Source: a virus (lineage: Duplodnaviria; Caudoviricetes). From it: DNA of 64,000 nt. Below, piece after piece: positions 24,190-51,946 of the stretch. The translations under genes and the position numbers were made by a program. The stretch is taken from the IMG/VR virus record IMGVR_UViG_3300033120_000337, positions 8,448 to 72,447 of that record. The stretch is one strand, 5' to 3'. Below the pieces are notes generated by a model that ran no database searches, had not been told where the DNA came from, and was given only the letters and a program-made list of their open reading frames with translations. How positions within the stretch are numbered: the stretch's first letter is position 1; each line of letters opens with the position of its first letter.

Positions 24190-24216
24190 TGGATGTGTTG
24201 ATCCAACCATTCAGCA
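24190..24216 (+). promoter_or_regulatory. repeated H-type pseudoknot motif, copy 1
   Basis: TGGAT-G-TGTTG-ATCCA-ACCATT-CAGCA. Confidence 0.7.
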
Positions 24217-24261
24217 ACTCATGCGGCTAATCTCAGGTACCTGGCACCTTGAAGCCATTAC

Positions 24262-24334
24262 GGGCTTGTAGCTCATTTGGGAGAGCGCTTCGATGGCATC
24301 GAAGAGGTAAGCGGTTCGATCCCGCTCTGGTCCA
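24262..24334 (+). tRNA. tRNA-Ala(GGC)
   Basis: Cloverleaf with G3-U70; loop ATGGCAT. Confidence 0.9.
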
Positions 24335-24335
24335 T

Positions 24336-24461
24336 TCGTGTGAATACTCGATCGGGATTACATTGTCCTAACCACAATCGATCTGGGTTCGAATCCCAGG
24401 CATCTTCGCAAGAGGGTGAGCAGGGTTGCTAGAAAACATCTCGGTCATTCTTGTCGCACGA
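24336..24461 (+). ncRNA. Y-RNA-like RNA 2 (YrlA-type, permuted tRNA-like domain with degenerate D-arm)
   Basis: TCGTGTGA/TCGCACGA stem, ATAC, ATCGGGAT/ATCTCGGT stem, TACA; T-arm CTGGG-TTCGAAT-CCCAG followed by a closed acceptor hairpin CATCTTC-GCAA-GAGGGTG. Confidence 0.7.
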
Positions 24462-24471
24462 TCTATTTTCT

Positions 24472-24544
24472 GTCTCTGTCGTCTAAAAGGCTAGGACCTT
24501 GGCCTCTCAAGTCAAGAACAGGAGTTCGAATCTCCTCAGAGACA
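24472..24544 (+). tRNA. tRNA-Glu(CTC)
   Basis: Canonical; loop CTCTCAA. Confidence 0.9.
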
Positions 24545-24680
24545 TCAAGCGAATTGGAAGTCAGACTACAACCAAGCAGATGGTCGCGGGTTCGAATCCC
24601 GTCCTTCGGGTAAAACCGGAGGTAGCTCAGCGGTAGAGCATCCGCCATATACACGTCTCCTTCCGTTCTTTGTCGCTTGA
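24545..24680 (+). ncRNA. Y-RNA-like RNA 3 (YrlA-type, circularly permuted tRNA mimic)
   Basis: TCAAGCGA/TCGCTTGA terminal stem; order is T-arm (GCGGG-TTCGAAT-CCCGT), closed acceptor (CCTTCGG-GTAAAA-CCGGAGG), D-arm (GCTC-AGCGGTA-GAGC); no anticodon loop. Confidence 0.85.
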
Positions 24681-24686
24681 ACTATT

Positions 24687-24838
24687 CCAGAGGTGGAATA
24701 CCTGTGAGGACTACATCTAAACCTCAGTGTCGCTGGTTCAAGTCCAGCCTGCCCCGCTTCTATGGGGGAGTAGCTCAGTTGGTAGAGCATGAGAATGTCC
24801 ACGCTAAAACTTGTCCGCCTCACTAACTTCCTTCCTGG
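24687..24838 (+). ncRNA. Y-RNA-like RNA 4 (YrlA-type, circularly permuted tRNA mimic)
   Basis: GAATAC, GTGAGG/CCTCAC stem, TACA; T-arm GCTGG-TTCAAGT-CCAGC, closed acceptor CTGCCCC-GCTTCTAT-GGGGGAG, D-arm GCTC-AGTTGGTA-GAGC. Confidence 0.8.
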
Positions 24839-24909
24839 TGTTTGTAGCTCAACGGTAGAGCGCTCGATTGTGGATCGAGATACGAGGGGTTCAACTCCCC
24901 CCTTACACC
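24837..24909 (+). tRNA. tRNA-His(GTG)
   Basis: G-1/C73 pair; loop TTGTGGA. Confidence 0.85.
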
Positions 24910-24914
24910 CTCAA

Positions 24915-24988
24915 CGGGTATGACGGTCTGGTTGATCTGCTTTCCCTGATAAGGAGGGCGTGCATGAGTTCGATTCTCTGATACCCGA
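24915..24988 (+). tRNA. tRNA-Ile(GAT)
   Basis: Acceptor CGGGTAT/ATACCCG; loop CTGATAA; weak anticodon and T stems. Confidence 0.65.
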
Positions 24989-25162
24989 TGCCGTGTCCAG
25001 GGTCTGTTTGACCTGGCCTCAAGGAACTGGCTCAACAAAAGTTGGGTTGGGCGCGAACGGATTAGCGTGTGACTCGAATGGGGGAGGTCGTTCTCCCCAC
25101 TCGCCAGAATGTAGGCCTAGCCGTACCTATGTTCCTGAAAAAAAACTACGGCTGTTTCTTGA

Positions 25163-25236
25163 TGCGGAGTAGAGCAGTCTGGTAGCTCGCTAGGCTCATA
25201 ACCTAGAGGTCGGTGGTTCGAATCCATCCTCCGTTA
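25163..25236 (+). tRNA. tRNA-Met(CAT), initiator-like
   Basis: Mismatched 1:72 pair; fMet-type D-arm GAGC-AGTCTGGTA-GCTC; loop CTCATAA. Confidence 0.85.
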
Positions 25237-25305
25237 TTATGCCGGAATCTCACCACCATGTTCCCAGGGATGGGACTCCACATGGTGGTCCGGCTCCAAC
25301 TAAAC

Positions 25306-25378
25306 GGGCATGTAGCTCAGCTGGGAGAGCGGTGGCTTTGCAAGCCATAGGTCAGGGGTTCGATCCCCCTCTTGTCCA
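25306..25378 (+). tRNA. tRNA-Ala(TGC)
   Basis: Canonical, G3-U70; loop TTTGCAA. Confidence 0.95.
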
Positions 25379-25379
25379 T

Positions 25380-25520
25380 GGGAAGATAGCTCAGGAGACG
25401 TCTAAGACGTTCGACTTGTCTGAGGAGTACGGGAGACCAAGGGCCCAGAAACAAAGACAGTTCAGAGCGGCGAGCCAGTAAGCTCGGTGCGCGTCGGTGA
25501 AAATCCGATTCTTCCCACCA
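25380..25520 (+). ncRNA. tRNA-like RNA with 72-nt D-loop, 6-nt anticodon loop and encoded CCA
   Basis: GGGAAGA/TCTTCCC-A-CCA acceptor; GCTC...GAGC D-stem; CGAGC-CAGTAA-GCTCG arm; GTCGG-TGAAAAT-CCGAT T-arm. Confidence 0.65.
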
Positions 25521-25716
25521 TTTTCCGATAGGTAGTGAATGCCAAATGCGCCTCGAACCATGAGGAATGAGCGGGGCTAACCACTATCCTTCGGAATCCA
25601 TTTACTCCTGAAGATGTTGCAAGTAGGTGTCCTGGAAGGTCTTGGGCCAGGATAGGAGTTCTCCCCAAGAGAAGGGTTCAAGTCCCACTACTTGCAATGT
25701 CTTCAGGTGTAGTTTC

Positions 25717-25788
25717 TCCGCCAAAGCATAAAGGGTGATGCCCCGTCTTGGTATGACGGTTAACTGGTTTCAAGCACCAGTGGTGGCT
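25717..25788 (+). tRNA. tRNA-Thr(GGT)
   Basis: CCGTC-TTGGTAT-GACGG; 6-bp acceptor; T-arm CTGGT-TTCAAGC-ACCAG. Confidence 0.6.
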
Positions 25789-25798
25789 TGTTTCTTTA

Positions 25799-26207
25799 GG
25801 GTCTGTACTGGTTTCGACAGGGTGTGCGAATAGAGAGAGTGCGTGTCGGGCTTCGTCAGGTCAGCTCGTTAAAAAGATGTGTCAAATAAGCTGCCAACTC
25901 AAACAGCTACGTTCCCGCCGCAATGGCTGCGTGAACCGTGGGTACGTGTAGCCGCCTAGGGCGACATGTACTTGCGTAATCAAATCTAGGTAAAAACCCC
26001 GGCTTTTCTTCAGCGGGGGGTCGCAAGACTACTCTGAGGGAATGGTGGAGGGTACTACGCGAACCGTGGAACCCCTAAAGGTGGCCCGTTGGGGCTGGGC
26101 ATCTTAGGTCAAGAGGCTTGCTTCTTGACCACCCGAATTCCAACTACACACGTAGGACTCGATCTAACTAGCCATTTTGGACGTGGGTTCGATTCCCACC
26201 AGATCCA
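25799..26207 (+). ncRNA. ssrA: tmRNA; tag peptide (A)ANSNSYVPAAMAA*
   Basis: 5' GGGTCTGTACTGGTTTCGAC; acceptor GGGTCTG/CAGATCC with G3-U70; T-arm GTGGG-TTCGATT-CCCAC; resume codon at 25893 after AAATAAGCT; stop at 25932-25934. Confidence 0.92.
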
Positions 26208-26216
26208 TCAGTGAAT

Positions 26217-26289
26217 GCGGGCGTAGCTCAGTTGGTAGAGCCTCAGTTTTCCAAACTGAATGTCGTCGGTTCGAATCCGATCGCCCGCT
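26217..26289 (+). tRNA. tRNA-Gly(TCC)
   Basis: Canonical; loop TTTCCAA. Confidence 0.95.
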
Positions 26290-26444
26290 ACTCGTCCCCG
26301 TGCTGCCAGGGGGAGATCGAGAGATAGGGACCCCTGGACTTGTCCAGGCTAGGAACCCTACTGGCACAATAGATTTTCGGGTCGGCACGGTTGCGGTGGG
26401 TCGCTCCCACCTCGGGTTCAACTCCCATACGGTCCACTCATTTT

Positions 26445-26516
26445 GCGGGTGTAGGTCAGTGGTAGACCATCAGCTTCCCATGCTGAATGTCGTGGGTTCG
26501 ACTCCCATCACCCGCT
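26445..26516 (+). tRNA. tRNA-Gly(CCC)
   Basis: Canonical; loop TTCCCAT. Confidence 0.92.
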
Positions 26517-26518
26517 CT

Positions 26519-26585
26519 GGGCTGAATACTCGCCGGGAGTACATCCTTGCACGGTGAAACCTCTCTCGGTATTTCTTGTCAGTCC
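26519..26585 (+). ncRNA. Y-RNA-like RNA 5 (minimal)
   Basis: GGGCTGA/TCAGTCC stem, ATAC, CCGGGAG/CTCTCGG stem, TACA, TATT-TCTTG on the 3' strand. Confidence 0.7.
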
Positions 26586-26591
26586 TCTAAT

Positions 26592-26662
26592 GACGCTGTC
26601 CTTCTGGTGAAGGCATCTGACTGCAAATCAGGTTGAGGGACGTTCAACTCGTCTCGGCGTCT
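26592..26662 (+). tRNA. tRNA-Cys(GCA)
   Basis: GACGCTG/CGGCGTC acceptor; loop CTGCAAA; U73. Confidence 0.8.
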
Positions 26663-26678
26663 TGACGGTAAGGTGACA

Positions 26679-26705
26679 TGGATGCGCTGATCCAAACCCT
26701 CAGCG
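26679..26705 (+). promoter_or_regulatory. repeated pseudoknot motif, copy 2
   Basis: TGGAT-G-CGCTG-ATCCA-AACCCT-CAGCG, enclosed by TGACGGTA (26663) / TACCGTCA (26738). Confidence 0.7.
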
Positions 26706-26744
26706 ACCCACAGGGGATTGGATGTAAGTCTACCGTCAGTTTTT

Positions 26745-26816
26745 GTCCTTGTAGCTCAGTGGAAGAGCAGGAGCCTTCTAAGCTCTTGGTCAGGGGTTCA
26801 ACTCCCTTCAGGGACG
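26745..26816 (+). tRNA. tRNA-Arg(TCT)
   Basis: Canonical; loop CTTCTAA. Confidence 0.95.
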
Positions 26817-26826
26817 TGTTTCTTTA

Positions 26827-26899
26827 GTCCGCATAGTGAAACTGGATATCACGCATCTCTACGAAAGATGTATTCGGGGTTCGAATCCCTGTGTGGACG
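26827..26899 (+). tRNA. tRNA-Arg(ACG)
   Basis: Canonical; loop CTACGAA. Confidence 0.92.
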
Positions 26900-26982
26900 C
26901 TAGTACCTATCATGAATCCTCACCCCTACTTTCGGAAGTCTGAATAAGGGGTCAGGAAGGAAAGCTCGTCTCAAGATAAACT

Positions 26983-27054
26983 GTCCTTGTGTTGAAGTGG
27001 ATATCAAGGAAGCCTCCGAAGCTTTCATCCCAAGTTCGAATCTTGGCAAGGACG
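26983..27054 (+). tRNA. tRNA-Arg(CCG)
   Basis: Canonical; loop CTCCGAA. Confidence 0.92.
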
Positions 27055-27225
27055 TTCCACTGTGTCTCATTCGACGCTCTCGCAGGTGTAGATGAGGAGT
27101 CACACAGAAAGGCGTGGGTCTCTCAGCGGTCCACGGGAAGAAAGCATACAGGGGAAGGCAACTTGCTCTTACTGAGCCCTATCTCAGGAGGGTAATAGCT
27201 AGAACTGGAAGCAAGCTGGGGTTTC

Positions 27226-27294
27226 GCCTCTGTCTTCTTGGAGAAGGTCAACTCTCATAAGGTTGGTGTGACGGTTCGATTCCGTACTGAGGCA
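27226..27294 (+). tRNA. tRNA-Met/Ile2(CAT), short D-arm
   Basis: CAACT-CTCATAA-GGTTG; T-arm with TTCGATT; acceptor GCCTCTG/CTGAGGC. Confidence 0.65.
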
Positions 27295-27492
27295 TTGGAT
27301 GGTCTAAAGGGAAGGAGGCACTTAGCCTGTGTTTCCGGAATCACATGGCTTGTGATTCCCGAACTTAGACCCTCTGAGTCGTACAAAGCCGTTGGAGACA
27401 AACCAACAATGGAGCGGTAGAAGTCCGCGTAAACGGATGTGGAATCCGAACTGGACAGAATGAGGGTGAGAGACCTTCTGAGTACGATTTTT

Positions 27493-27564
27493 GCGCTTGG
27501 ATGCCGTTGGATGGCAGCCGCACTGTCTATGCGGTGAAGCTCGGTTCGATTCCGGTCAGGCGCG
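27493..27564 (+). tRNA. tRNA-Asp(GTC)
   Basis: CCGCA-CTGTCTA-TGCGG; G73. Confidence 0.85.
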
Positions 27565-27722
27565 TTTCCGCTGTGTTCCTGGTAGGTTGCACGTAACAGG
27601 GGTTAACACAGAAAGGCGTGGGTGGATGTGCACCCATAGGGAAAAAGTCCAAGTTCGTGTCGGATGGTGTCTGCGAGTCCTTACGTAGACAGCCAAACAG
27701 CGAGTCTTGGGCACATATCTAA

Positions 27723-27794
27723 CGGAGTGTGGCGAAGTGGTATCGCGCTTGGTTCGGGACCGAGAGATCGCAGGTTCAATCCCTGTCACTCCGA
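27723..27794 (+). tRNA. tRNA-Pro(CGG)
   Basis: Canonical; loop TTCGGGA. Confidence 0.95.
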
Positions 27795-27849
27795 AATCCT
27801 CATGAGATGGGGAAAAGACCATAGGGTCTTCGTTAATGAGATAGGAAAA

Positions 27850-27876
27850 CGGATGCGCTGTTCCAACCCATCAGCG
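27850..27876 (+). promoter_or_regulatory. repeated pseudoknot motif, copy 3 (stem 1 degenerate)
   Basis: CGGAT-G-CGCTG-TTCCA-ACCCAT-CAGCG. Confidence 0.55.
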
Positions 27877-27900
27877 ACCTGAGATGAAGAAGAGAAGAAT

Positions 27901-27972
27901 GCACGGGTAGCTCAGCGGTAGAGCGGTTGTCCTACACACAACGGGTCAGGGGTTCGACTCCCTTTTCGTGCA
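27901..27972 (+). tRNA. tRNA-Val(TAC)
   Basis: GTTGT-CCTACAC-ACAAC (C33). Confidence 0.88.
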
Positions 27973-28130
27973 AAACAAAAACCCACCTAGGTAGCAAGGA
28001 TTCAGTTCCTTGCATAACGTTCAGGGAGGTGGGGAGAGCGGATAGAGTGAACGTACTCCGCTTACAAATACCGGACAAGGAAGAGCATAGAGAGGTTTCC
28101 TCAATACACCTCTTCCTTGATCTTGGACAA

Positions 28131-28210
28131 GCCCGAGTGGTGAAATTGGCATACACACCGTCCTCAGAAGGCGGCGCGAAAGCGTGTGGGTTCGACTCCC
28201 GCCTCGGGCA
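28131..28210 (+). tRNA. tRNA-Leu(CAG)
   Basis: Class II cloverleaf; loop CTCAGAA. Confidence 0.92.
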
Positions 28211-28227
28211 CTGTTTCTGTTTGTAAT

Positions 28228-28311
28228 GAGGATGTGGCGGAATTGGTATACGCGCCAGACTAAGAATCTGGTGGTCTTAGAATCGTGTGGGTTCGACTCC
28301 CACCATCCTCA
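28228..28311 (+). tRNA. tRNA-Leu(AAG)
   Basis: CCAGA-CTAAGAA-TCTGG; Leu-type D-arm and variable arm; A34. Confidence 0.88.
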
Positions 28312-28396
28312 TGGGTTAGGCAACTTCGTGCAGACAAAATGTCACTGATCATGACGTCGTTGTCGGTCGTTGCCCAACTCAGTTTCTCAGTTCTAT

Positions 28397-28471
28397 GAGG
28401 GGATAGCCCAACGGCAGAGGCAGGGTCTTTAAGATTCCCCAAGGTGGTGGGTTCGAATCCCCCTCTCCTTA
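28397..28471 (+). tRNA. tRNA-Leu(TAA)
   Basis: Positional count gives loop TTTAAGA; weak anticodon stem; short variable arm. Confidence 0.7.
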
Positions 28472-28476
28472 GTTTT

Positions 28477-28557
28477 GCGAAGGTGGCGGAATGGCATACG
28501 CGCTGGGTTTAGGTTCCAGTATCTTCGGGTGTGAGGGTTCGAGTCCCTCTCTTCGCA
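28477..28557 (+). tRNA. tRNA-Leu(TAG)
   Basis: Class II; loop TTTAGGT. Confidence 0.92.
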
Positions 28558-28577
28558 TTGGTTTTTGAGTCTCAAAC

Positions 28578-28657
28578 GCGGGAATGGCGGAATTGGCATA
28601 CGCATCGGCTTCAAAACCCGACGAGAAATCTTGAGGGTTCGACTCCCTCTTCCCGCA
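28578..28657 (+). tRNA. tRNA-Leu(CAA)
   Basis: Class II; loop TTCAAAA. Confidence 0.88.
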
Positions 28658-28685
28658 CAACAACAAACAGAAAGGTAGGTAGACC

Positions 28686-29213
28686 GTGCAAATGACTCTT
28701 GTATTGGATCAAGGCTACCAGCCTCATCGGGTAGTCACATGGCAGCGAGCTGTGATGCTGTGGTGGGAGGGTAAGTGTGAGGTCGTTGAAGAGTACGACA
28801 ACGACATTCGAAGTGTGTCCATCACAATCAAGATGCCTGCTGTTGTTCGACTCTTGCACAGAGTGCGGGGGAAGAAGCAGGCTGTGAAGTTCTCTCGGAT
28901 CAACGTTGCGACTCGTGACAACTTCACCTGTCAATACTGCGTCAAGAAGCTCCCTCTCTCGAAGCTTACGTACGACCACGTTGTACCTAAGTCCAAGGGT
29001 GGAAAGACTTGCTGGGAGAACATCGTGATGGCTTGTCACCCCTGTAACGAGGGGAAGAGAGATCGCTCACCCGAGCAAGCAGGTCTGAAGCTGCGTAAGC
29101 AGCCAGTCAAACCAGCTTACTTGCCAGTAGTGACCATGAGATTTGAGATGACCAACATCCCTGATGCTTGGGTATCCTACGTCTACTGGAACTCTCCTCT
29201 CGAAGAGGGCTAG
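28686..29213 (+). CDS. HNH endonuclease (McrA-like family)
   Basis: TLVLDQGYQP, PAVVRL, RDNFTCQYC, TYDHVVPKSKGG and WENIVMACHPCNEGK; SD AAAGG. Confidence 0.9.
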   Translation: MQMTLVLDQGYQPHRVVTWQRAVMLWWEGKCEVVEEYDNDIRSVSITIKMPAVVRLLHRVRGKKQAVKFSRINVATRDNFTCQYCVKKLPLSKLTYDHVVPKSKGGKTCWENIVMACHPCNEGKRDRSPEQAGLKLRKQPVKPAYLPVVTMRFEMTNIPDAWVSYVYWNSPLEEG

Positions 29214-29699
29214 TTTTGATTTCGATGTGGTTTCTCTGAATCCGGTCTCTAACGAATGGCTGAAGACACTCTCTGGTCACGGGGGGTAAGGCAGCAATCT
29301 GGAGAACGGTTGTATCGTCGCTGTGAAGGAAAGTACGGGGCAGGAGATTTCGAGCTACTAGGCCTGGCATTAGGTTCTCCAGGTTCGAGATCTCTCTGGC
29401 AGGCGCTAAGAATACAATCCAGTGCTGCTCGCCTTGAGGGTAAAAGCCCTTCGAGTTGTTGAAGCCGACCGGCCAGTCGGTTGAGACTCGTGTCCGAATA
29501 ACTAACTTTCACGGTTACGTCCTGGGGTGGAATCTCAGGTCGATAGAGGACGGGTTCAGGGAAACCACAAAGATTTCCGGACGACTTTTCGGAGTCGGCA
29601 AATGCATGGGCGGGACGGCGTCCATGGGAATACAACGATTGTCAGGTGACTGGCAGTCAGACCCGTCCTCTTTTCTTTACAGTGTCTCAACTGTGAAAA

Positions 29700-29727
29700 T
29701 GGCTGTGCTGAGCCAACCCAATCAGTG
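29700..29727 (+). promoter_or_regulatory. repeated pseudoknot motif, copy 4 (compensatory TGGCT/AGCCA)
   Basis: TGGCT-G-TGCTG-AGCCA-ACCCAAT-CAGTG. Confidence 0.7.
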
Positions 29728-29746
29728 ACTACCTGTCCGTTGATCT

Positions 29747-29833
29747 GGAAGTTGAATCTGTCAGGGACAGAGCCTGTTTCGAACACAGTGCGCTCTTCGT
29801 AAGAAGAGTGGGGATCAAGACCTCCGATTTCCG
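29747..29833 (+). tRNA. tRNA-Ser(CGA)
   Basis: Loop TTCGAAC; long variable arm; T-loop ATCAAGA. Confidence 0.8.
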
Positions 29834-29842
29834 TGTCTGATT

Positions 29843-29927
29843 GGAAGCTGAAATGGCCAGGGGTCATTACTGCTTGGAAAGCAGCTAGCACCTGAAAGGG
29901 TGTGGAGTTCGAGTCTTCCGGCTTCCG
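29843..29927 (+). tRNA. tRNA-Ser(GGA)
   Basis: Loop TTGGAAA; long variable arm. Confidence 0.85.
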
Positions 29928-29932
29928 TGAAA

Positions 29933-29959
29933 TGGATGCGTTGATCCAACCCATCAGCG
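29933..29959 (+). promoter_or_regulatory. repeated pseudoknot motif, copy 5
   Basis: TGGAT-G-CGTTG-ATCCA-ACCCAT-CAGCG. Confidence 0.7.
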
Positions 29960-29998
29960 ACAAGTCGCGGTTCTAGGCCTGATCAGCAATGTGATAAT

Positions 29999-30085
29999 GG
30001 AGGGTAATCTCGGCCGGGCCGAGCACTGCCTTGAAAACAGAGGGCTCCTTGAAAGAGGGGTGGAGTTCGACTCTTCTGCTCTCCA
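29999..30085 (+). tRNA. tRNA-Ser(TGA)
   Basis: Loop CTTGAAA; long variable arm. Confidence 0.82.
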
Positions 30086-30088
30086 TTT

Positions 30089-30173
30089 GGAAGGTGAACT
30101 GGCCAGGGGTCAGTCCGGTTTGCTAAACCGAGAGTGCTCGCAAGGGCATGGGGATCAGGACCTCCTCCTTCCG
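30089..30173 (+). tRNA. tRNA-Ser(GCT)
   Basis: Loop TTGCTAA; long variable arm; T-loop ATCAGGA. Confidence 0.82.
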
Positions 30174-30184
30174 TTTCCGTTTCT

Positions 30185-30256
30185 GCGGGTGTAGCTCAGT
30201 GGTAGAGCGTTTCGTTGCCAACGAAAATGTCGCGGGTTCAATCCCCGCTACCCGCT
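30185..30256 (+). tRNA. tRNA-Gly(GCC)
   Basis: Canonical; loop TTGCCAA. Confidence 0.95.
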
Positions 30257-30363
30257 TGTGTGAACTCAACACAACCTCCTAGAGGGTGACGTGTTCTCAC
30301 AATTTGTCCTCCAGAAAACTGGAGGAAGGAATTCCTGTTCAGGAAAACATCGGGGTAGATACT

Positions 30364-31995
30364 GTGGCAAACAAGAATCTCTTTCAATCCGCTCCAGCGG
30401 GTCGCGTCGCGCCGATTGCCGACACAGTCAACGCAGCTGGTGGTTTGGCGTACAAGGCTTCTCAGAAGGAAGCTCTTGCTCAGTACGTGGCTACTGGTTG
30501 TCTGGGTTCAACGTTCTACTCGACAGATGAGGAACAGTTGGACACGATCTTGAAGCTCGCTGCTTCAGTGGATCCTGAGTTCGTTGCGAAGGCAGCGATC
30601 TACGGACACAAGTCAGCCTTCATGAAGGACGCTCCGGCCCTCCTTCTGGCTCACCTCATGACACGTGGAGAGCCTGGTATCGCAGCCATGAAGTCTGCTT
30701 TCTTCCAGGTCATCGACAACCCAAAGATGATGCGGACTTTCGCTCAGATTGTCCGGTCTGGTCGGGTTGGTCGAAAGTCTTTTGGTACGGCACCAAAGAA
30801 GCTGATTGAGACTTGGTTCCTGAACCGTACAGATGCTCAGTTGATCCGTGCAACAGGTGACAAGCCTTCGATTGCAGACGTGGTCAAGATGGTTCACCCA
30901 AAGCCAGCCACACCTGAGCGGAAGGAAACTTACGCTTGGCTCGTGGACAAGAAGGTCGACCTCGAAAAGGCAGATCCTCTTCTTCAGGAGTACGAGGCTT
31001 GGAAGAAGGACACCACTCGTCCGATTCCTGATGTTCCGTTCCTCATGCTCTCGAATGCGAAACTCACGAAGTCTCAGTGGGTGGAAATCGCACTCTCTGC
31101 TTCTTGGCAGACTTTGCGTATGAACATCAACACGTTCCAACGTCACGGTGTTTTCGAGGACGCAGCCACGGTCAAAAAGCTTGCAGACAAGCTTCGTGAT
31201 GAGGACTCGATTCTTCGGGCTCGGGTATTCCCATACCAACTCCTTGTTGCGTACAAGCACACTGAGGCTGCTCCCATGGAGATCCAGAACGCTCTTCAGG
31301 ATGCGATGGAAATTGCGACCAAGAACGTTCCTTCCTTTGATGGTCTGAAGGTTGCGGTTTTCCCAGACGTGTCTGGGTCTATGGCTTCCCCAGTCACAGG
31401 CACTCGAAAGGGTGCTACTTCGAAGGCTCAGTGCAGAGAGGTCGCTGCCCTCATTGCAGCTACGATCCTTCGTAGGAACCCAGATGCCATTGTTCTTCCC
31501 TTCAAGGAAGACATTGTGAAGCTGAGGTTCAACCCACGCGATTCGATCATGACGATCGCCAAGCAGATTGCGGAATGCGGCTCAGGTGGTACAGACTGCT
31601 CAGCTCCTCTGAGGGCTCTGAACGCAACCAAGGAGAAGGTGGACATCTGCATCTTCGCCTCGGACAATGAGTCTTGGATGGACAGCAAGGTCGTTCAAAA
31701 CTCTTGGTCCTCTGGTTACACATCATCGGCTACCAAGTCGATGATCGAGTGGGAGGCAATCCGTGCTCGGAACCCAAAGGCGAAGTTGGTTTGCATTGAC
31801 CTCGCTCCCAACGGCTCACGTCAGGCTCCTACACGTGAGGACATCCTCAATGTAGGCGGATTCTCGGATGAAGTGTTCACCCTCATGTCTGAGTTCGTAA
31901 AGGGCTCAGGTAGAGATCACTGGGTGAAGAAGATCGAGGCGATCGGTTCAAAGCCTACAGAAACGAAAAACGTTCCTGTAGAGGCTTCACCTTAG
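30364..31995 (+). CDS. rsr: Ro60/Rsr ortholog (TROVE domain + vWA domain)
   Basis: Probable GTG start (ANKNLF..ADTVNAAGG.AY..ALAQYVATGC); FPYQLLVAY; vWA MIDAS DVSGSM; GGTDCSAPL; SDNESW; ILNVGGFSDEVF. Confidence 0.92.
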   Translation: MANKNLFQSAPAGRVAPIADTVNAAGGLAYKASQKEALAQYVATGCLGSTFYSTDEEQLDTILKLAASVDPEFVAKAAIYGHKSAFMKDAPALLLAHLMTRGEPGIAAMKSAFFQVIDNPKMMRTFAQIVRSGRVGRKSFGTAPKKLIETWFLNRTDAQLIRATGDKPSIADVVKMVHPKPATPERKETYAWLVDKKVDLEKADPLLQEYEAWKKDTTRPIPDVPFLMLSNAKLTKSQWVEIALSASWQTLRMNINTFQRHGVFEDAATVKKLADKLRDEDSILRARVFPYQLLVAYKHTEAAPMEIQNALQDAMEIATKNVPSFDGLKVAVFPDVSGSMASPVTGTRKGATSKAQCREVAALIAATILRRNPDAIVLPFKEDIVKLRFNPRDSIMTIAKQIAECGSGGTDCSAPLRALNATKEKVDICIFASDNESWMDSKVVQNSWSSGYTSSATKSMIEWEAIRARNPKAKLVCIDLAPNGSRQAPTREDILNVGGFSDEVFTLMSEFVKGSGRDHWVKKIEAIGSKPTETKNVPVEASP

Positions 31996-32032
31996 ACCTC
32001 TTACCGCCTCGGTAGCATCTCTATGCTCCGCC

Positions 32033-32455
32033 ATGAAGAAGAAAGGATTCTTCATGGCGGAGAGCAAGAGAAAAGGAGACGTAGGAGAGGCTATGGTGTT
32101 GGCCGATGTTTTGAGGCAAGGACACAAGGTCGCTCTCCCTGTGGGTGAGGATTGGAGATACGACTTAATTGTTCTGAGGCATGGGAAGTTGGAAAGAGTT
32201 CAATGTAAGTACGTTGAATCCGATGGCTTGGTGATTGAAGTTCCAGGTCGGAGTTCAAATTCTCATTCAACTCGTCTATACACCTCAGATGAGATTGACT
32301 GCCTCGCAGTTTATGACAAGACAACTGAGTCTTGTTACTACATCCCATCCTCTGAGATAGGGTCTGGTAAGTCCTTGTTTTCCCTTAGGTTAGTTCCTTC
32401 TTCAAATGGTCAGGTTAAGAGAGTACGTTGGGCAAAAGACTACAAGTCTTGGTGA
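32033..32455 (+). CDS. free-standing PD-(D/E)xK endonuclease (PDDEXK_5 / I-Ssp6803I-like)
   Basis: KGDVGEAMV, P.GEDWRYDLIV, RVQCKY, Y..DEIDCLAVYD and CYYIP motifs. Confidence 0.85.
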   Translation: MKKKGFFMAESKRKGDVGEAMVLADVLRQGHKVALPVGEDWRYDLIVLRHGKLERVQCKYVESDGLVIEVPGRSSNSHSTRLYTSDEIDCLAVYDKTTESCYYIPSSEIGSGKSLFSLRLVPSSNGQVKRVRWAKDYKSW

Positions 32456-32460
32456 TTTCT

Positions 32461-32533
32461 GCCTCTATAGCTCAGTTGGAAGAGCACCCTCCTTGTAAGT
32501 GGGATGTCGTCGGTTCGATTCCGACTGGAGGCT
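32461..32533 (+). tRNA. tRNA-Thr(TGT)
   Basis: Canonical; loop CTTGTAA. Confidence 0.92.
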
Positions 32534-32548
32534 TGGTTTCTGTTTCTT

Positions 32549-32621
32549 GGCCCCATCGTCTATTGGTTAGGATTGTGGATTTTCACTCCACAAAACGTGG
32601 GTTCGATTCCCCGTGGGGTCA
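32549..32621 (+). tRNA. tRNA-Glu(TTC)
   Basis: Canonical; loop TTTTCAC. Confidence 0.92.
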
Positions 32622-32635
32622 TTTCATTTCAGCAC

Positions 32636-42216: not shown

Positions 42217-42279
42217 GCTTTTGGGGTGTAAGAGATAGTACGAAGAGTCCTTACATCTCATGTAACGACCAATCTAAAA

Positions 42280-42306
42280 TGGATTTGCTGATCCAAACCC
42301 TCAGCC
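42280..42306 (+). promoter_or_regulatory. repeated pseudoknot motif, copy 6, 2 nt upstream of the SSB Shine-Dalgarno
   Basis: TGGAT-T-TGCTG-ATCCA-AACCCT-CAGCC, then GT-AGGAG (42309) and ATG 42321. Confidence 0.7.
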
Positions 42307-42320
42307 GTAGGAGATAGAAC

Positions 42321-43073: not shown

Positions 43074-43187
43074 AATCTTGAGTTCTCAGGTTCCATGATC
43101 CAACAGGTCGCGGGTGGCGTCCTACGAACCAACTCCACATGGGTTGGTTCGTAAAGTCTTCAACCACCCATTTTTTCTGGAGGTCTT

Positions 43188-48791: not shown

Positions 48792-48793
48792 TC

Positions 48794-49777
48794 ATGGCCA
48801 TGGATCCATTGTGGTGGAGCAACTTGGAGGCCTACGAGGAGTGTCCTCAGAAATTTCTCTGGAAGAGAGGCTGGGGGGTTATCGACTTGGGGCGGGGTCC
48901 AGGAAGAGGCAAGCCACTGCCTGATGAAAAGACCTCCCAACACAACTCCTTGATGGGCCATGTCTTGTCTGAGGCAATTGAACGTCTCTACAATGACGAG
49001 CTGTGGAGGGACCCTTCAACTCTTGTAGCAAAGCTCTCAGAGATTGTCGCAAAGGACTTCGCTATTCGGATCGCGAAGGGTGCGTACATCAAGTACGATG
49101 AGAACTGGATTGAGGGTGGGAAGGAGAGGTGGGATTTAGCCCCACCAAAACACATTCTCCTGAAGACATGTACAGACGGGATTCTGAACTACCTGAAGAC
49201 GATGAAACGTAACCGTCTTCTTGGTCCATACGCAAAATCCGAGGTGGATATCAAAGCCTCCATTGACAAGGACAATCCTATAGCAGGACGTCCTGACATC
49301 TTGATCACTCGGGATGACACTGGGACATCCATCCTTGATGGAAAGAACTCAAGGAACCCTGGTCGACACACCAACCCAGATCAGCTCAGGTGGTACGCAC
49401 TGTGTTACTACCTTGCTTTCCACAAGCTTCCAGACCGTCTGGCTTTTGTCTACTTTCGGTACCCTGAAGGAAACCCACCTCCAGAAGGTCATGAAGGCTC
49501 AAAAGAGTCTTGGACTGGACTAGTTGATGTCCCAGTTGTGAAAGAGGATCTCAAGGTCCTTGCTCAACGAGCTGTCAACACACGCAGGATGATGTTGAAG
49601 GAGTATTTCGAAGCTACTCCGTCGACGAAAGCTTGTGGATTCTGTGATTTCAAGCCTGTTTGTACCGAACACGCAGCTTGGAAGCAAGCAAATGCCCGCA
49701 AGCCAAAAGAGCCTGTGGGTGAAGTCGAGAAGAAAATAGCCAACTCCGTTGGTTTTGTGTTCTTTGGTGGCGACTAA
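48794..49777 (+). CDS. PD-(D/E)xK exonuclease (RecB/Cas4-like)
   Basis: ECPQKF, GRPDIL, ILDGKNS, QLRWYAL and CGFCDFKPVC motifs. Confidence 0.85.
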   Translation: MAMDPLWWSNLEAYEECPQKFLWKRGWGVIDLGRGPGRGKPLPDEKTSQHNSLMGHVLSEAIERLYNDELWRDPSTLVAKLSEIVAKDFAIRIAKGAYIKYDENWIEGGKERWDLAPPKHILLKTCTDGILNYLKTMKRNRLLGPYAKSEVDIKASIDKDNPIAGRPDILITRDDTGTSILDGKNSRNPGRHTNPDQLRWYALCYYLAFHKLPDRLAFVYFRYPEGNPPPEGHEGSKESWTGLVDVPVVKEDLKVLAQRAVNTRRMMLKEYFEATPSTKACGFCDFKPVCTEHAAWKQANARKPKEPVGEVEKKIANSVGFVFFGGD

Positions 49778-49809
49778 TTCCACTCCAGACAGTAAGAAGA
49801 AGAGGTAGT

Positions 49810-50073
49810 GTGACAGACCTGAAAGTAAGAATCGAGTCCTGCATCAAGCGTAGAGATGCTTCCCAATCGCAGAAGGAAAGAGCCCTTGGACGCTTAGAGG
49901 AGGCAGAGAAAAACCTTGAGAGCATCCGTAAGGAGCTTCTTGAGAAGAAGATCGAGCCTGAGCGGTTAGACGAGACAATCCAAAAGCTAGAGGCTTCCTT
50001 GCAAGCTTCAGTTACAGATTTTGAAACTCAGGTTACTGAGTTAGAGAGATCAATCAAACCCTTCGTTCAGTAA
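49810..50073 (+). CDS. coiled-coil protein (possibly part of the split SbcC)
   Basis: 87 aa continuous heptad pattern. Confidence 0.55.
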   Translation: MTDLKVRIESCIKRRDASQSQKERALGRLEEAEKNLESIRKELLEKKIEPERLDETIQKLEASLQASVTDFETQVTELERSIKPFVQ

Positions 50074-50109
50074 TGATCCCCGCAGCACTCAGCAACAGTA
50101 GGAGTTTCT

Positions 50110-51276
50110 ATGAAGTTTGACGTAGCCAAACGTGACCTTGAGTCGGCTCTCCGAGTCGTTTCCCACACTGTCTCTATGGGTGGATCTGACATTTCCTCCC
50201 ACTACCTATTTCGTCGATCAGGTGAGAAGTTGGAGGTTCTCTCCTACAACGGACGTGTCTTCTCCTCCTGTCCTGTCGTTGCGACATTCGAAGGTGATGA
50301 CACCTCTTTCACGATTGAGGCAAAGAGAGTTCATCTCCTATTGGATGCTGTGTCAGATGACTCAGTCTTGACCGTGGACGGAACTGGCGAGGTCTCTGCC
50401 AACACCCGAAAGGGGAAAAACGTTTTCTCCAGCCTGGACCCAGAACTTTTCCCTTACTGGGATCAGTTGTTGGAGGGCGCCACCAACTCAGCAACAGTCC
50501 CCGCAGAGCGAATTTCCGCTGCACTATCTCATGCGAAGTCTTTCGTCTACTCGGATGAGGCCAAAAGCCCGCATTTGTGTGTGGCAGAATTCCGAAAGGG
50601 TTGTGTGTTCAGCACAGATCAGATGGGTGCCAGCGTCGTGAAGGTTGCTGGTATGGAGTCATCTGAGGCTCGAATTTTTGGAAAGGACATTGGTGCCATC
50701 CTGTCTTTCCTTTCTACATTCAAAACGAAACCTGTGAAGTCTGCTGATGGTGCTGCGAAGGCAGACCCTGTTGAGGTTCAGATTTTTGAGTGCGAGAAGG
50801 CTCTGTTCTTCCGTAGAGGTGATGGGGCTATCTTTGGTGAATCCAAGTTCTCACACCGTTTTCCGGAAGTCACTGTGGATTGGGATGACCTCTCAGACGA
50901 ACATTGGTTTGAACTCAACAAAGTAGAGGTTGCGGACACAATCAAGTTCCTTGCTGCTGGAGCCAAATGGGATGACATCAAGGTCTTTATTGATCTGAGG
51001 CCAGGTTCTGTAGTCTTCTCAATGAAAGCCGCAAATGGGAAGGCAATCTCTTCGGAGGTCTCAACAAAGGCTCAAGGGTCTTCCTCCACAGAAACGTTGC
51101 CTGAGAATGGGTTCCCAGTAGCCAACACCTACATCATGCACCTTTTGTCAAGTGTGAGCGGAGACACTGTTAGGTTTGGTGTCACGAAGAAGGGCAAGGG
51201 TGGGTGGATTCGGGTACTGGATATTCGTGGTGAAGACTCATACCTGACGACTGTGGCATGGCTCAAAGTCGCTTGA
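50110..51276 (+). CDS. dnaN: DNA polymerase III beta sliding clamp-like protein
   Basis: 388 aa three-domain size; MKFDVAKRDL..AL start, ELFPY, STDQ; clamp-loader genes nearby. Confidence 0.75.
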   Translation: MKFDVAKRDLESALRVVSHTVSMGGSDISSHYLFRRSGEKLEVLSYNGRVFSSCPVVATFEGDDTSFTIEAKRVHLLLDAVSDDSVLTVDGTGEVSANTRKGKNVFSSLDPELFPYWDQLLEGATNSATVPAERISAALSHAKSFVYSDEAKSPHLCVAEFRKGCVFSTDQMGASVVKVAGMESSEARIFGKDIGAILSFLSTFKTKPVKSADGAAKADPVEVQIFECEKALFFRRGDGAIFGESKFSHRFPEVTVDWDDLSDEHWFELNKVEVADTIKFLAAGAKWDDIKVFIDLRPGSVVFSMKAANGKAISSEVSTKAQGSSSTETLPENGFPVANTYIMHLLSSVSGDTVRFGVTKKGKGGWIRVLDIRGEDSYLTTVAWLKVA

Positions 51277-51887
51277 CATCTTTGTCTGAGGATCTCTCGA
51301 AGATCCTTGGGCGTCGTGACGCGGTTCGGGAATCTCTTCAGGCTTCCCGAGCTTCGGTTCGAGTTCTAGCGGAAAAAGTGGATCTTCTGGATCTAGTCTC
51401 GGCTCTCCTGCGTTCTCTGATCGACGCCGAGATCACTGAGGGTGTAAAGGCAATCGAAACCCTACAGACTGAGGGTGTTCGAGCTGTCTTTGATGACCAG
51501 GACCTCTCCGTACGTGCTGATGTTGAGGTTCTCCGAGGCAAGGTGAACGTTTCTCTTCTCACTTCTCAAAAGAAGGGTGGGGAGACCATCGAGAGCGCGA
51601 GCTTGGATGGTTTTGGCGGAGCCGTTTCGACAGTACAGTCTGTGCTTCTTCGGCTGGCTCTGATCTTTCGTAGAGGTCTACGTCCCGTCTTGTTCTTGGA
51701 TGAGAGTCTCCCTGCGTTTGATGAGAAGTATGTCTTGAACATGGCTTCATTCCTGAAAACTCTGTGCGCTCGGACTGGTGTAGACATCCTACTTGTCACA
51801 CACAACCCTCTCTTGGTGGAGGCTGCTGACCGTGCGTATCGAATTCGTAGGGATAAGGACCAAGCTTCTTTCCATAGGATTCGATAG
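51258..51887 (+). CDS. SbcC/Rad50-like ATPase, C-terminal half
   Basis: Signature-like DGFGG, Walker B LFLDE, D-loop PAFD and H-loop LLVTH. Confidence 0.85.
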   Translation: MAQSRLTSLSEDLSKILGRRDAVRESLQASRASVRVLAEKVDLLDLVSALLRSLIDAEITEGVKAIETLQTEGVRAVFDDQDLSVRADVEVLRGKVNVSLLTSQKKGGETIESASLDGFGGAVSTVQSVLLRLALIFRRGLRPVLFLDESLPAFDEKYVLNMASFLKTLCARTGVDILLVTHNPLLVEAADRAYRIRRDKDQASFHRIR

Positions 51888-51919
51888 GGGAGATTTATGA
51901 CTGAATTCGTTCTAGGAAA

Positions 51920-51946
51920 TGGATGTGCTGATCCAACCACTCAGCA
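51920..51946 (+). promoter_or_regulatory. repeated pseudoknot motif, copy 7
   Basis: TGGAT-G-TGCTG-ATCCA-ACCACT-CAGCA, 17 nt upstream of ATG 51964. Confidence 0.7.

What the first reader, a model, noticed from the sequence alone, without database searches (positions are those of the whole stretch)
24190..51946. Seven copies of a compact H-type pseudoknot with compensatory base changes
Seen: consensus TGGAT-G-YGCTG-ATCCA-(6-7 nt, A/C-rich)-CAGCR at 24190, 26679, 27850, 29700, 29933, 42280 and 51920, all on the + strand, outside annotated genes and preceded by A (mostly an A-run). Stem 1 covaries (TGGAT/ATCCA vs TGGCT/AGCCA). Stem 2 covaries (CGCTG/CAGCG vs TGCTG/CAGCA) and tolerates G-U pairs. 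Loop 1 is 1 nt with no inter-stem spacer, the geometry of the T-even gene 32 mRNA pseudoknot. I do not recognise it as a known riboswitch. Inference: a genome-wide RNA element, such as a protein-binding operator, 5' exonuclease block or processing mark, linking the tRNA island to replication genes.
Basis: partly seen in the sequence, partly recalled or inferred. Interest (0 to 1): 0.85.

Follow-up and report, generated by a model that had tools for sequence, protein, structure and literature searches.

The report
Portable RNA pseudoknot module in phage
A roughly 36-base cassette that folds into a small RNA pseudoknot sits just upstream of tRNA, small-RNA and protein genes in a giant-phage genome fragment. 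It comes and goes as a unit between near-identical strains, matches no described RNA family, and its job is still unknown.

Summary
All seven copies are at the stated coordinates on the + strand, where 0.08 are expected by chance. A profile scan finds no other full copy in the window.

A covariance-model search adds one copy in the same contig outside the window, six in a second contig (G001) and one in a related phage (G007). That copy outside the window lies on the minus strand, 2 nt before a minus-strand tRNA-Met.

In 16 copies, stem 2 is paired in 98.8% of cells and four of its five pairs show compensatory double changes. Stem 1 is paired in 86%. Its pair 4-13 switches A-U, G-C and C-G and is never unpaired. 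The G-U pairs work only on the gene-sense strand, which points to RNA.

New here: six of the seven window copies are absent or replaced in a ~96% identical strain. Two are clean insertions flanked by 6-7 bp direct repeats. In every case the right edge falls exactly after CAGCRAC.

The only copy shared by all strains ends 2 nt before the ribosome-binding site of a gp32-like SSB gene (fold Z 9).

The unit resembles type III antitoxin (ToxI) units: 36 nt, a 27-nt H-type core and A-rich tails. No Rfam family matches. Function is unproven. A processing and 5'-protection module is my best guess.

The parts
24186..24218 (+). Copy 1: A-run, pseudoknot TGGAT-G-TGTTG-ATCCA-ACCATT-CAGCA, then AC. It lies 43 nt upstream of tRNA-Ala(ggc).
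   Evidence: The whole segment 24158-24218 is absent from strain L184.
24158..24164 (+). Left copy of the 7-bp direct repeat TCATGCG. The right copy is at 24219-24225. Together they flank the 61-nt insertion that carries copy 1.
   Evidence: read laying joint 24157>24219 with 7 shared letters. Pairwise alignment with L184.
26675..26707 (+). Copy 2, 17 nt after tRNA-Cys and 36 nt before tRNA-Arg(tct).
   Evidence: In L184 and in run X6 the motif is replaced by unrelated sequence, and homology resumes exactly after CAGCGAC.
27846..27878 (+). Copy 3 (CGGAT/TTCCA, stem 1 weakened), 21 nt before tRNA-Val.
   Evidence: The segment 27837-27879 is absent from L184.
27837..27842 (+). Left copy of the 6-bp direct repeat TGAGAT. 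The right copy is at 27880-27885. Together they flank the 43-nt insertion that carries copy 3.
29696..29729 (+). Copy 4 (TGGCT/AGCCA, loop 3 of 7 nt), in front of a ~200-nt stretch of tRNA-like or Y-RNA-like sequence.
   Evidence: The region 29677-30174 is replaced by 619 other bases in L184.
29929..29961 (+). Copy 5, in front of a tRNA-Sec-like element, a second tRNA-like unit, tRNA-Gly and the Ro60 gene.
42276..42308 (+). Copy 6, the only copy shared by all strains examined. It ends 2 nt before the AGGAG of the gp32-like SSB gene (42321-43073).
   Evidence: present in L181, L182 and L183. SSB fold.
50075..50096 (+). 3' half-copy (GATCCCCGCAGCACTCAGCAAC). In strain L183 a further copy that lacks stem 1 sits directly upstream of it.
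51916..51948 (+). Copy 7, 15 nt before the ATG at 51964.
   Evidence: In L181 and L183 the motif and its left flank are replaced, and homology resumes exactly after CAGCAAC.

Best explanation
The motif is a portable module of about 36 nt that acts as RNA. It consists of:
- a 5' A-rich tail, usually (G)AAAA;
- a 27-nt H-type pseudoknot: stem 1 of 4-5 bp, a 1-nt loop 1, stem 2 of 5 bp (6 if A12-U22 is counted), no spacer between the stems, and an A/C-rich loop 3 of 6-7 nt (5 nt in one copy in another strain);
- a 3' AC, often ACAAG.

It is transcribed as part of the leader of whatever gene lies downstream, whether tRNA, tRNA-like RNA or protein gene. It has been inserted, replaced and lost as a unit during very recent strain divergence.

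Proposed mechanism (inferred, not shown): an endoribonuclease cuts long precursor transcripts in the single-stranded A-tract next to the folded pseudoknot. The compact knot then stays at the new 5' end of the downstream RNA. There it shields that RNA from 5'-end-dependent decay and marks the start of a separately stable unit, so the module works as a processing and protection punctuation mark.

Shown: the repeat, its strand, its position, covariation in both stems, and the insertion polymorphism. Inferred: that both stems form together, that cleavage occurs, and which enzyme does it.
For: The repeat is real and is confined to one strand.

Sixteen copies from four records all point the same way as the gene downstream. 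This includes the minus-strand copy 2 nt before a minus-strand tRNA-Met.

Covariation:
- Stem 2 is paired in 98.8% of cells, and four of its five pairs show double changes.
- Stem 1 pair 4-13 is A-U in 10 copies, G-C in 5 and C-G in 1, and is never unpaired.
- The covariation score is reached by 0 of 500 shuffles and falls sharply when the partners are slid.
- Five of the six G-U pairs, all in stem 2, would be A/C mismatches on the other strand.

Copies with an uncompensated break would still have scored well above the noise in the covariance-model search. None appeared between 13 and 28 bits.

Copy 42280 lies between a leader element that covaries across roughly 50 distinct orthologous leaders and the ribosome-binding site, so at that locus it is inside the mRNA.

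The clean insert at 27850 carries only 7 nt upstream of the knot, too little for a separate promoter.

The tRNA island has no excess of sigma-70-type promoters, with 1 found against 5.3 expected.

Each stem alone is worth about -2 to -7 kcal/mol.
Against: There are no RNA end data. The RNA runs that could be laid on the window are kept only as contigs, and none of the listed pieces ends at a copy.

Three copies (L183v, G001d, G001b_up) keep stem 2 but have lost most of stem 1, and copy 27850 weakens it. The pseudoknot may therefore not be obligatory.

As I recall from NMR work on T2 gene 32 mutants (Du and Hoffman 1997, from memory, not read here), a 1-nt loop 1 over a 5-bp stem 2 is at the edge of what could be confirmed.

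The distance to the downstream gene varies from 2 to about 100 nt.

Gaining six processing sites within roughly 4% sequence divergence is odd for a purely cis-regulatory element.
Confidence: 0.35

Rival explanations
1. Decoy that mimics a type III antitoxin. Each unit imitates a ToxI-like antitoxin RNA. A host abortive-infection endoribonuclease of the ToxN, AbiQ, CptN or TenpN kind would cut in the A-rich tails and then be held inactive by the pseudoknot. Extra copies raise the dose, which would explain rapid gain of copies under pressure from host defence.
For: The architecture matches what is published for ToxI (PMC8860590): 36-nt units, an H-type core of 25 nt with two coaxial stems of 4 bp, A-minor contacts from the second loop, single-stranded tails, and cleavage at GAA^AU.

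Here the core is 27 nt. Loop 3 starts with an invariant A. AAAU sits at the 5' edge in 11 of 16 copies. In G001 two units stand in tandem exactly 36 nt apart, joined by ACAAGAA-AA.

Phage PhiTE carries 1.5 pseudo-ToxI repeats in an intergenic locus, and these expand under selection (PMC3475682).

Copy number differs sharply between near-identical strains.
Against: Nearly all copies are single and dispersed, not tandem, so most lack a 3' cleavage site.

Strict GAAAU is present in only 3 of 16 copies.

No Rfam family, ToxI included, matches at E up to 10.

No ToxN domain is present in G000, G001 or G007.

No tandem array of the motif turned up in bacterial genomes, metagenomes or viral contigs. 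The host is unknown.
Confidence: 0.2
2. Phage-specific promoter cassette read as double-stranded DNA. The A-run plus the 29-nt conserved block would be recognised by a phage-encoded or phage-modified RNA polymerase, for example through the sigma region 4 protein at 56347-56943. Transcription would start near CAGCRAC, and inserting the cassette would create a new transcription unit.
For: The size (about 37 nt), the strict orientation and the position 2-45 nt upstream of genes are what a promoter would show.

Homology with other strains resumes exactly at the 3' end of the motif.

The tRNA island has no sigma-70-type promoters.

A protein with sigma-70 region 4 is encoded in the window.

The SSB gene is bracketed by the motif upstream and a strong hairpin downstream.

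Repeated promoter cassettes at indel boundaries are known in T4-like phages as PeSLs (PMC4122927).
Against: Double-stranded recognition predicts no compensatory changes, yet five base pairs show them, and the wobble pairs fit only one strand.

No -35/-10, sigma-54 or MotA-box match is visible on direct reading of the sequence.

The loop 3 length varies from 5 to 7 nt.

Copy 42280 sits downstream of a leader element that itself behaves as RNA.

The hairpin promoters of phage N4 form on the template strand (from memory), which is the wrong strand here.
Confidence: 0.12
3. Operator for an RNA-binding protein. The candidates are the gp32-like SSB, by analogy with T4 gene 32 autoregulation, and the NusG-like factor at 55725-56333, by analogy with leader elements that recruit specialised NusG paralogues. 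The protein would bind the knot and set translation or read-through of the downstream unit.
For: The one copy shared by all strains ends 2 nt before the ribosome-binding site of a gene whose product matches the gp32 core at Z 9.0 and 8.8 over 165 residues, with the next match at 3.2. That product also has a glycine-rich linker and an acidic tail.

Orthologous SSB genes in about 50 relatives carry a different, covarying leader stem at the same place.

A weak NusG-like protein (NGN plus KOW domains) is encoded in the window.
Against: Copies in front of tRNA and tRNA-like genes cannot control translation.

Five copies within 6 kb are more than antitermination would need.

Most copies are dispensable between strains.

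No binding was tested or could be tested with these tools.
Confidence: 0.15
4. Selfish miniature mobile DNA element. The paired arms would be needed in single-stranded DNA by the machinery that copies or inserts the element, as with REP elements and the ends of IS200/IS605. The element would have no role for the phage.
For: Presence or absence differs between near-identical strains. Direct repeats of 6-7 bp flank two inserts. The right end is fixed and the left end varies.

Template switching at quasi-palindromes could also make arms complementary without any selection on RNA (own knowledge).
Against: There are no terminal inverted repeats, and no transposase was found beside the copies examined.

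HUH-type elements leave no target duplication (own knowledge).

Orientation follows the neighbouring gene, including one copy on the opposite strand.

The 3' AC and the composition of loop 3 are conserved, which points to more than a hairpin.
Confidence: 0.08

Closest known systems
ToxI and other type III toxin-antitoxin antitoxin RNAs, including the pseudo-ToxI repeats of phage PhiTE
   Same: The unit is about 36 nt. It has an H-type pseudoknot core of 25-27 nt with two short coaxial stems, an A-led second loop placed to lie in the stem 1 minor groove, and A-rich single-stranded tails (ToxN cuts at GAA^AU). There is a phage-borne precedent in an intergenic locus whose copy number changes quickly.
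   Different: ToxI units stand in tandem arrays next to a toxin gene. Here the units are dispersed singly in front of genes, with one tandem pair. Loop 1 is 1 nt. No Rfam family, ToxI included, matches. No toxin and no cognate host array were found.
Autoregulatory pseudoknot in the gene 32 mRNA leader of T-even phages
   Same: It is a phage H-type pseudoknot with a 1-nt loop 1, no spacer between the stems and a second loop of about 7 nt. One copy lies in the 5' leader of a gp32-fold SSB gene.
   Different: The following gene 32 details are from memory. The gene 32 knot has 7 bp in stem 2 (6-7 bp in its structural family), lies about 40 nt upstream of the start codon in front of an unstructured stretch, and is single-copy. 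This motif has 5-6 bp in stem 2, abuts the ribosome-binding site, is multi-copy and also precedes tRNA genes.
PeSL (promoter-early stem-loop) cassettes of T4-like phages
   Same: Both are short conserved intergenic cassettes, repeated in one orientation upstream of genes and concentrated at indels and replacements between closely related phages.
   Different: PeSLs are sigma-70-type promoters joined to a terminator stem-loop, and they act as sites of homologous exchange that swap the flanking genes. Here there is no promoter consensus, the pairing covaries as in RNA, and the cassette itself is the indel.
RNase III processing sites of phage T7 and small pseudoknot substrates of RNase P
   Same: These are repeated structured RNA marks between cistrons that direct endonucleolytic processing. 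RNase P cuts small H-type pseudoknots when they are followed by RCCA (PMC12710915). Here stem 2 is followed by AC in 15 of 16 copies.
   Different: The coaxial helix of about 10 bp is too short for RNase III. Only 4 of 16 copies have ACC after stem 2. No cleavage has been shown.
REP elements and other dispersed extragenic palindromes of bacteria
   Same: Both are structured intergenic repeats of about 35 nt whose presence or absence varies between strains.
   Different: REPs occur in both orientations, often as inverted pairs, are simple hairpins and are linked to RAYT transposases (own knowledge). This motif has one orientation and two crossing stems, and no such enzyme was seen nearby.

Membership tests
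Type III antitoxin RNA (ToxI-like) | Tandem direct repeats of one 34-45 nt unit (1.5 or more units) | tested here: not met
   There is no tandem array in the window. Thirteen of 16 copies are single. One tandem pair at a 36-nt period occurs in G001, and one copy in L183 sits directly upstream of a half-copy.
Type III antitoxin RNA (ToxI-like) | Each unit folds into a pseudoknot with single-stranded tails | tested here: met
   Covariation supports both stems in 16 copies. The flanks are conserved and A-rich. The fold itself was not probed.
Type III antitoxin RNA (ToxI-like) | Toxin cleavage sequence at the unit boundaries (GAA^AU for ToxN) | tested here: inconclusive
   AAAU is at the 5' edge in 11 of 16 copies and strict GAAAU in 3 of 16. 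A 3' site exists only in the tandem pair.
Type III antitoxin RNA (ToxI-like) | Cognate endoribonuclease toxin gene, adjacent or in the host | tested here: not met
   PF13958 has no match in G000, G001 or G007. No array next to a toxin was found in genome or metagenome scans. The records are fragments and the host is unknown.
Type III antitoxin RNA (ToxI-like) | Match to a curated RNA family model | tested here: not met
   Rfam 15 at the gathering threshold finds only tRNAs and the tmRNA. At E up to 10 around two copies nothing relevant appears.
Gene 32-type autoregulatory pseudoknot | H-type knot with a 1-nt loop 1, coaxial stems and 6-7 bp in stem 2 | tested here: inconclusive
   Loop 1 is 1 nt and there is no spacer. 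Stem 2 has 5 covarying bp. A sixth pair, A12-U22, is possible in 13 of 16 copies but competes with U5-A12 of stem 1.
Gene 32-type autoregulatory pseudoknot | Lies in the 5' leader of the phage SSB gene | tested here: met
   This holds for copy 42280 only. The product of 42321-43073 matches the T4 and RB69 gp32 core at Z 8.8-9.0. The other copies precede unrelated genes.
Gene 32-type autoregulatory pseudoknot | Bound by the SSB, with repression of its own translation | not testable with these tools
   This needs binding and reporter assays.
PeSL promoter-terminator cassette | Sigma-70-type -35 and -10 hexamers with a 17-bp spacer | tested here: not met
   No consensus promoter overlaps any copy. 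None is visible on direct reading of the motif.
PeSL promoter-terminator cassette | Association with indels and replacements between close relatives | tested here: met
N4-type hairpin promoter | Hairpin of 5-7 bp with a 3-nt loop on the template strand | tested here: not met
   The stem 1 loop is 6 nt. The better conserved pairing is the long-range stem 2. The wobble pairs fit the non-template strand. The N4 definition is from my own knowledge.

The most novel reading that the evidence does not exclude
The module is a dispersed phage-borne mimic of a type III antitoxin. Single ToxI-like pseudoknot units would be scattered through highly transcribed leaders to soak up a host abortive-infection ribonuclease. 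They would spread by copying of a processed RNA or DNA fragment with a fixed 3' end, which would explain the fixed right edge, the variable left edge and the short target duplications. This would be an RNA anti-defence element that behaves like a miniature mobile element.
Probability: 0.15. Interest if true: 0.85.

Novelty: new variant of a known kind. Interest (0 to 1): 0.66.

Why it matters
Small structured RNA modules that move within a phage genome have hardly been described. This one offers a compact, covariation-supported pseudoknot with natural filled and empty sites in near-identical strains. That is a ready-made experiment for asking what one 36-nt RNA fold does to the RNA next to it.

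If it is a processing and protection mark, it shows how giant phages punctuate long tRNA and mRNA precursors. If it is an antitoxin mimic, it would be a new route of escape from abortive infection. In either case it is a candidate portable part for RNA engineering.

The work also turned up a widespread, covarying leader element in front of gp32-like SSB genes of this phage group. That would make gene 32-style autoregulation testable outside the T-even phages.

Tried and rejected
**Known RNA families.** Rfam at the gathering threshold and at the permissive threshold around two copies and around the Ro60 upstream region gave nothing for the motif.

**Searches of collections for more copies.**
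- Two motif patterns run against IMG/VR returned only G001 beyond chance.
- One pattern run against metagenome contigs returned 84 hits, all with the look of chance: no A-run, no AC, and a different loop composition.
- The same pattern run against 185,579 species genomes returned 70 chance-like hits. Four hits in one gammaproteobacterial MAG are copies of a repeated stretch with identical flanks, not the motif.

**Bare fold descriptor.** A 5+5 bp descriptor with no sequence requirement is common by chance, at 18-30 matches per strand of the 64-kb window. Geometry alone is therefore uninformative.

**Related phages.** Phages with 43-76% Ro60 identity or 57-61% SSB identity were scanned with covariance models R1 and R2. 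Only G007 has a copy, and only one.

**SSB leaders of relatives.** R2 does not detect these as homologues. A 14 of 18 match between copy 7 and the L224 leader loop is not significant once the number of comparisons is counted.

**A different motif upstream of distant SSB orthologues.** It is not repeated within their contigs.

**RNA evidence.** The runs that hold the phage are kept only as contigs, so no ends, strand or expression level could be read. The listed RNA contigs neither cover nor stop at a copy. No conclusion is drawn from that.

**Other negative searches.** The phage collection has no near relative. PF13958 (ToxN) and PF04542 (sigma region 2) have no match in G000 or G001. Logan contigs could not be opened as whole records.

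**Readings considered and set aside.**
- preQ1-I riboswitch: there is no second-loop pocket, and the motif lies upstream of tRNAs.
- HDV-like or theta ribozyme: there is no room for P3 and P1.1.
- Pistol ribozyme: there is no conserved downstream P2 or P3.
- Sigma-54, ECF or MotA promoters: the spacing and bases do not fit.
- Intrinsic terminator for antisense transcripts: stem 1 plus a T-run on the minus strand is flagged once by the scan, but it is only 5 bp and stem 2 is specific to the plus strand.

Full report
**Setting.** The window is bases 8448-72447 of a 72.4-kb IMG/VR viral contig that CheckV rates 16% complete, so it is a fragment of a very large phage genome. GC content is about 50%. 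The window carries:
- 33 tRNA genes and a tmRNA;
- a Ro60 homologue, ribonucleotide reductase, a RecD2-like helicase, RecA, SbcCD-like proteins, a clamp loader and a primase-like protein;
- a weak NusG-like protein at 55725-56333 and a protein with sigma-70 region 4 at 56347-56943.

**The observation.** All seven copies are at the stated places on the + strand, where 0.08 matches are expected by chance. A weight-matrix scan of both strands finds no further full copy. A 3' half-copy lies at 50075-50096.

Each copy is intergenic and lies 12-43 nt upstream of a tRNA gene or a start codon. Copies 29700 and 29933 instead precede roughly 200-nt stretches of tRNA-like sequence in front of Ro60.

**More copies.** Pattern scans of IMG/VR found one other contig with the motif, G001 (73 kb). 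A covariance model that encodes only stem 2 was then run over whole records. It added:
- two more copies in G001;
- a copy in the own contig outside the window (G000:6536);
- one copy in a related phage, G007, whose Ro60 is 71% identical.

A further G001 copy, standing in tandem just upstream of copy G001b, was found by reading the flank and by a stem 2 pattern scan.

The G000:6536 copy is on the minus strand and ends 2 nt before a minus-strand tRNA-Met. Orientation therefore follows the neighbouring gene rather than the chromosome strand.

Between the true copies (28 bits or more) and the noise (13 bits or less) there were no hits. Copies with uncompensated stem breaks therefore do not seem to exist in these records.

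**Structure.** One search counted pairs in 16 distinct copies.
- Stem 2 is paired in 98.8% of cells. Four of its five pairs show changes on both sides: U-A/C-G, G-C/A-U, C-G/U-A and U-A/C-G.
- Stem 1 is paired in 86%. Its pair 4-13 is A-U in 10 copies, G-C in 5 and C-G in 1, and is never unpaired. Its outermost pair is broken in six copies.
- The covariation score and the paired fraction exceed all 500 shuffles, and both collapse when the partners are slid by 1-3 columns.
- Stem 1 was not part of the search model, so its covariation is independent of how the copies were found. The first 11 copies, found without any model, already showed the stem 2 signal.
- Five G-U pairs lie in stem 2, and one more in stem 1. 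On the opposite strand these would be A/C mismatches, and the reverse case never occurs. The pairing therefore belongs to the gene-sense strand, and the simplest reading is RNA.

Three copies keep stem 2 but have lost most of stem 1, so stem 2 is the more secure helix. That both stems form at once is inferred from topology. Each hairpin alone is worth -2 to -7 kcal/mol.

The geometry resembles the T-even gene 32 knot in its 1-nt loop 1 and the absence of a spacer, but stem 2 has 5 bp. As I recall from Du and Hoffman 1997, which I could not read here, knots with a 1-nt loop 1 were confirmed only with 6-7 bp in stem 2. A sixth pair, A12-U22, is possible here in 13 of 16 copies.

**A cassette that comes and goes.** Contigs of public runs were laid on the window, and near-identical strains were fetched through identical proteins. 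These show that a ~96% identical strain (L181/L184) lacks six of the seven copies.
- Segments 24158-24218 and 27837-27879 are simply absent there. In the window they are flanked by direct repeats of 7 bp (TCATGCG) and 6 bp (TGAGAT).
- At 26679 and 51920 the motif and its left flank are replaced by unrelated sequence. Homology resumes exactly after CAGCRAC.
- The region holding copies 29700 and 29933 is replaced by 619 other bases that carry other tRNA-like units.
- Only copy 42280 is shared by all strains. One strain has a loop 3 of 5 nt there.
- A third strain (L183) has a private copy, lacking stem 1, at the 50.08-kb site.

The right edge of the cassette is therefore fixed and the left edge varies. 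The smallest clean insert is 37 nt. In G001 two units stand in tandem exactly 36 nt apart. I cannot tell whether the short flanking repeats are target duplications or the substrate of slippage deletions. Repeats placed exactly at the motif boundary, however, argue that the cassette arrived by insertion at some point.

**The shared copy and the SSB gene.** The product of 42321-43073 has no Pfam, PHROG or PDB sequence match. Its predicted structure (mean pLDDT 81.6) matches the RB69 and T4 gp32 cores at Z 9.0 and 8.8 over about 165 residues, with the next hit at 3.2. It also has a glycine-rich linker and an acidic tail.

Copy 42280 ends 2 nt before this gene's AGGAG. Upstream of about 50 distinct orthologues in related large phages there is a different conserved leader:
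- a GNGTAR box;
- then a stem of 5-11 bp that covaries freely, enclosing TGTCC...GACC;
- with its 3' strand a few bases before the ribosome-binding site.

The window keeps remnants of that leader at 42229-42272, upstream of the motif. At this locus the motif is therefore inside the mRNA leader.

**What it is not.**
- No Rfam family matches.
- There is no sigma-70-type promoter in or next to any copy, and the tRNA island is poor in such sites.
- Double-stranded recognition would not produce the compensatory changes seen here.
- The hairpin of an N4-type promoter would lie on the other strand.

**What it resembles.** Published ToxI antitoxin units are 36 nt long. They have a 25-nt H-type core of two coaxial 4-bp stems, A-minor contacts from the second loop, a 4-nt 5' tail and a 7-nt 3' tail, and the toxin cuts them at GAA^AU. 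A phage is known to carry and expand such mimics.

Here the core is 27 nt and loop 3 begins with an invariant A. The 5' edge reads AAAU in 11 of 16 copies. The tandem pair is joined by ACAAGAA-AA, which gives a 36-nt period.

Against membership: the copies are dispersed, strict GAAAU is rare, no toxin or cognate array was found, and no family model matches.

RNase P can cut small H-type knots that are followed by RCCA. Here AC follows stem 2 in 15 of 16 copies, but ACC follows it in only 4.

**Verdict.** The element is a real module with RNA-type structure that is gained and lost as a unit, and it belongs to no described family.

How it works is open. I rank the explanations as follows:
- processing and 5'-protection mark, 0.35;
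- antitoxin-like decoy, 0.20;
- protein operator, 0.15;
- promoter cassette, 0.12;
- selfish DNA element, 0.08.

RNA end mapping would separate most of these in one experiment.

Noticed in passing
L206-L285 (about 90 nt upstream of position 601 in each); window 42223-42272: About 50 distinct orthologues of the gp32-like SSB gene in large IMG/VR phage contigs share a 5' leader. It has a GNGTAR box, then a freely covarying stem of 5-11 bp enclosing TGTCC...GACC, and ends 2-25 nt before the ribosome-binding site. This is a candidate gene 32-style translational operator family. The window keeps only remnants of it, GTGTAAG...GAGTCC...CGACC.
   Followed up: partly
window 29730-30184: Repeated tRNA-like units lie upstream of Ro60: roughly 29840-29925 and 30090-30175, each with a GGAGTTCGA-type T-arm, plus 29998-30085, which scores 46.9 bits against Rfam tRNA-Sec (cut-off 47). 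They look like Y-RNA/YrlA-type partners of Ro60. The whole block is replaced by a different set of tRNA-like units in strain L184.
   Followed up: partly
window 55725-56943: Two adjacent genes: a NusG-like protein (NGN plus KOW domains; PF02357 at 15.3 bits; phrog_6386 'transcription antiterminator') and a 198-aa protein with sigma-70 region 4 in its N-terminal half and a second HTH-like stretch. They may form a phage transcription-control pair.
   Followed up: partly
window 19379-20640 (minus strand) against L184:894-2072: Strain L184 has one 392-aa PolyA_pol/CCA-adding enzyme gene where the window has two overlapping ORFs of 195 and 233 aa. This may be a frameshift, a sequencing error or a split gene.
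   Followed up: no
window 28396-28472: ARAGORN calls a tRNA with anticodon UUA, which reads the UAA stop codon, inside the tRNA island. This is a possible suppressor tRNA.
   Followed up: no
L184 around 8090-8150 (window 26673-26731) and L181:19585-19629 (window 51888-51950): At both sites where the other strain has a replacement, the alternative sequence ends in CCTTC immediately before the junction. One of the two (AAGAGTCCTTC) shares AGAGTCCTT with the SSB leader at window 42243. This may be a second kind of leader module that is allelic to the pseudoknot.
   Followed up: no
window 26715-26731 against L184: Next to copy 2, strain L184 carries an extra GC-rich hairpin (CCAGGGC-CGAAAGT-GCCCTGG) that the window lacks. 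Small structured indels appear to be common in the spacers of the tRNA island.
   Followed up: no
window 43120-43180: A 10-bp hairpin (ACGAACCAAC...GTTGGTTCGT) followed by a T-run lies directly after the SSB gene. The SSB gene is therefore bracketed by the motif upstream and a terminator-like structure downstream.
   Followed up: no
window 22800-32800: The 10-kb tRNA island holds 1 sigma-70-type promoter match against 5.3 expected from shuffles. Its transcription probably depends on read-through or on phage-specific signals.
   Followed up: no
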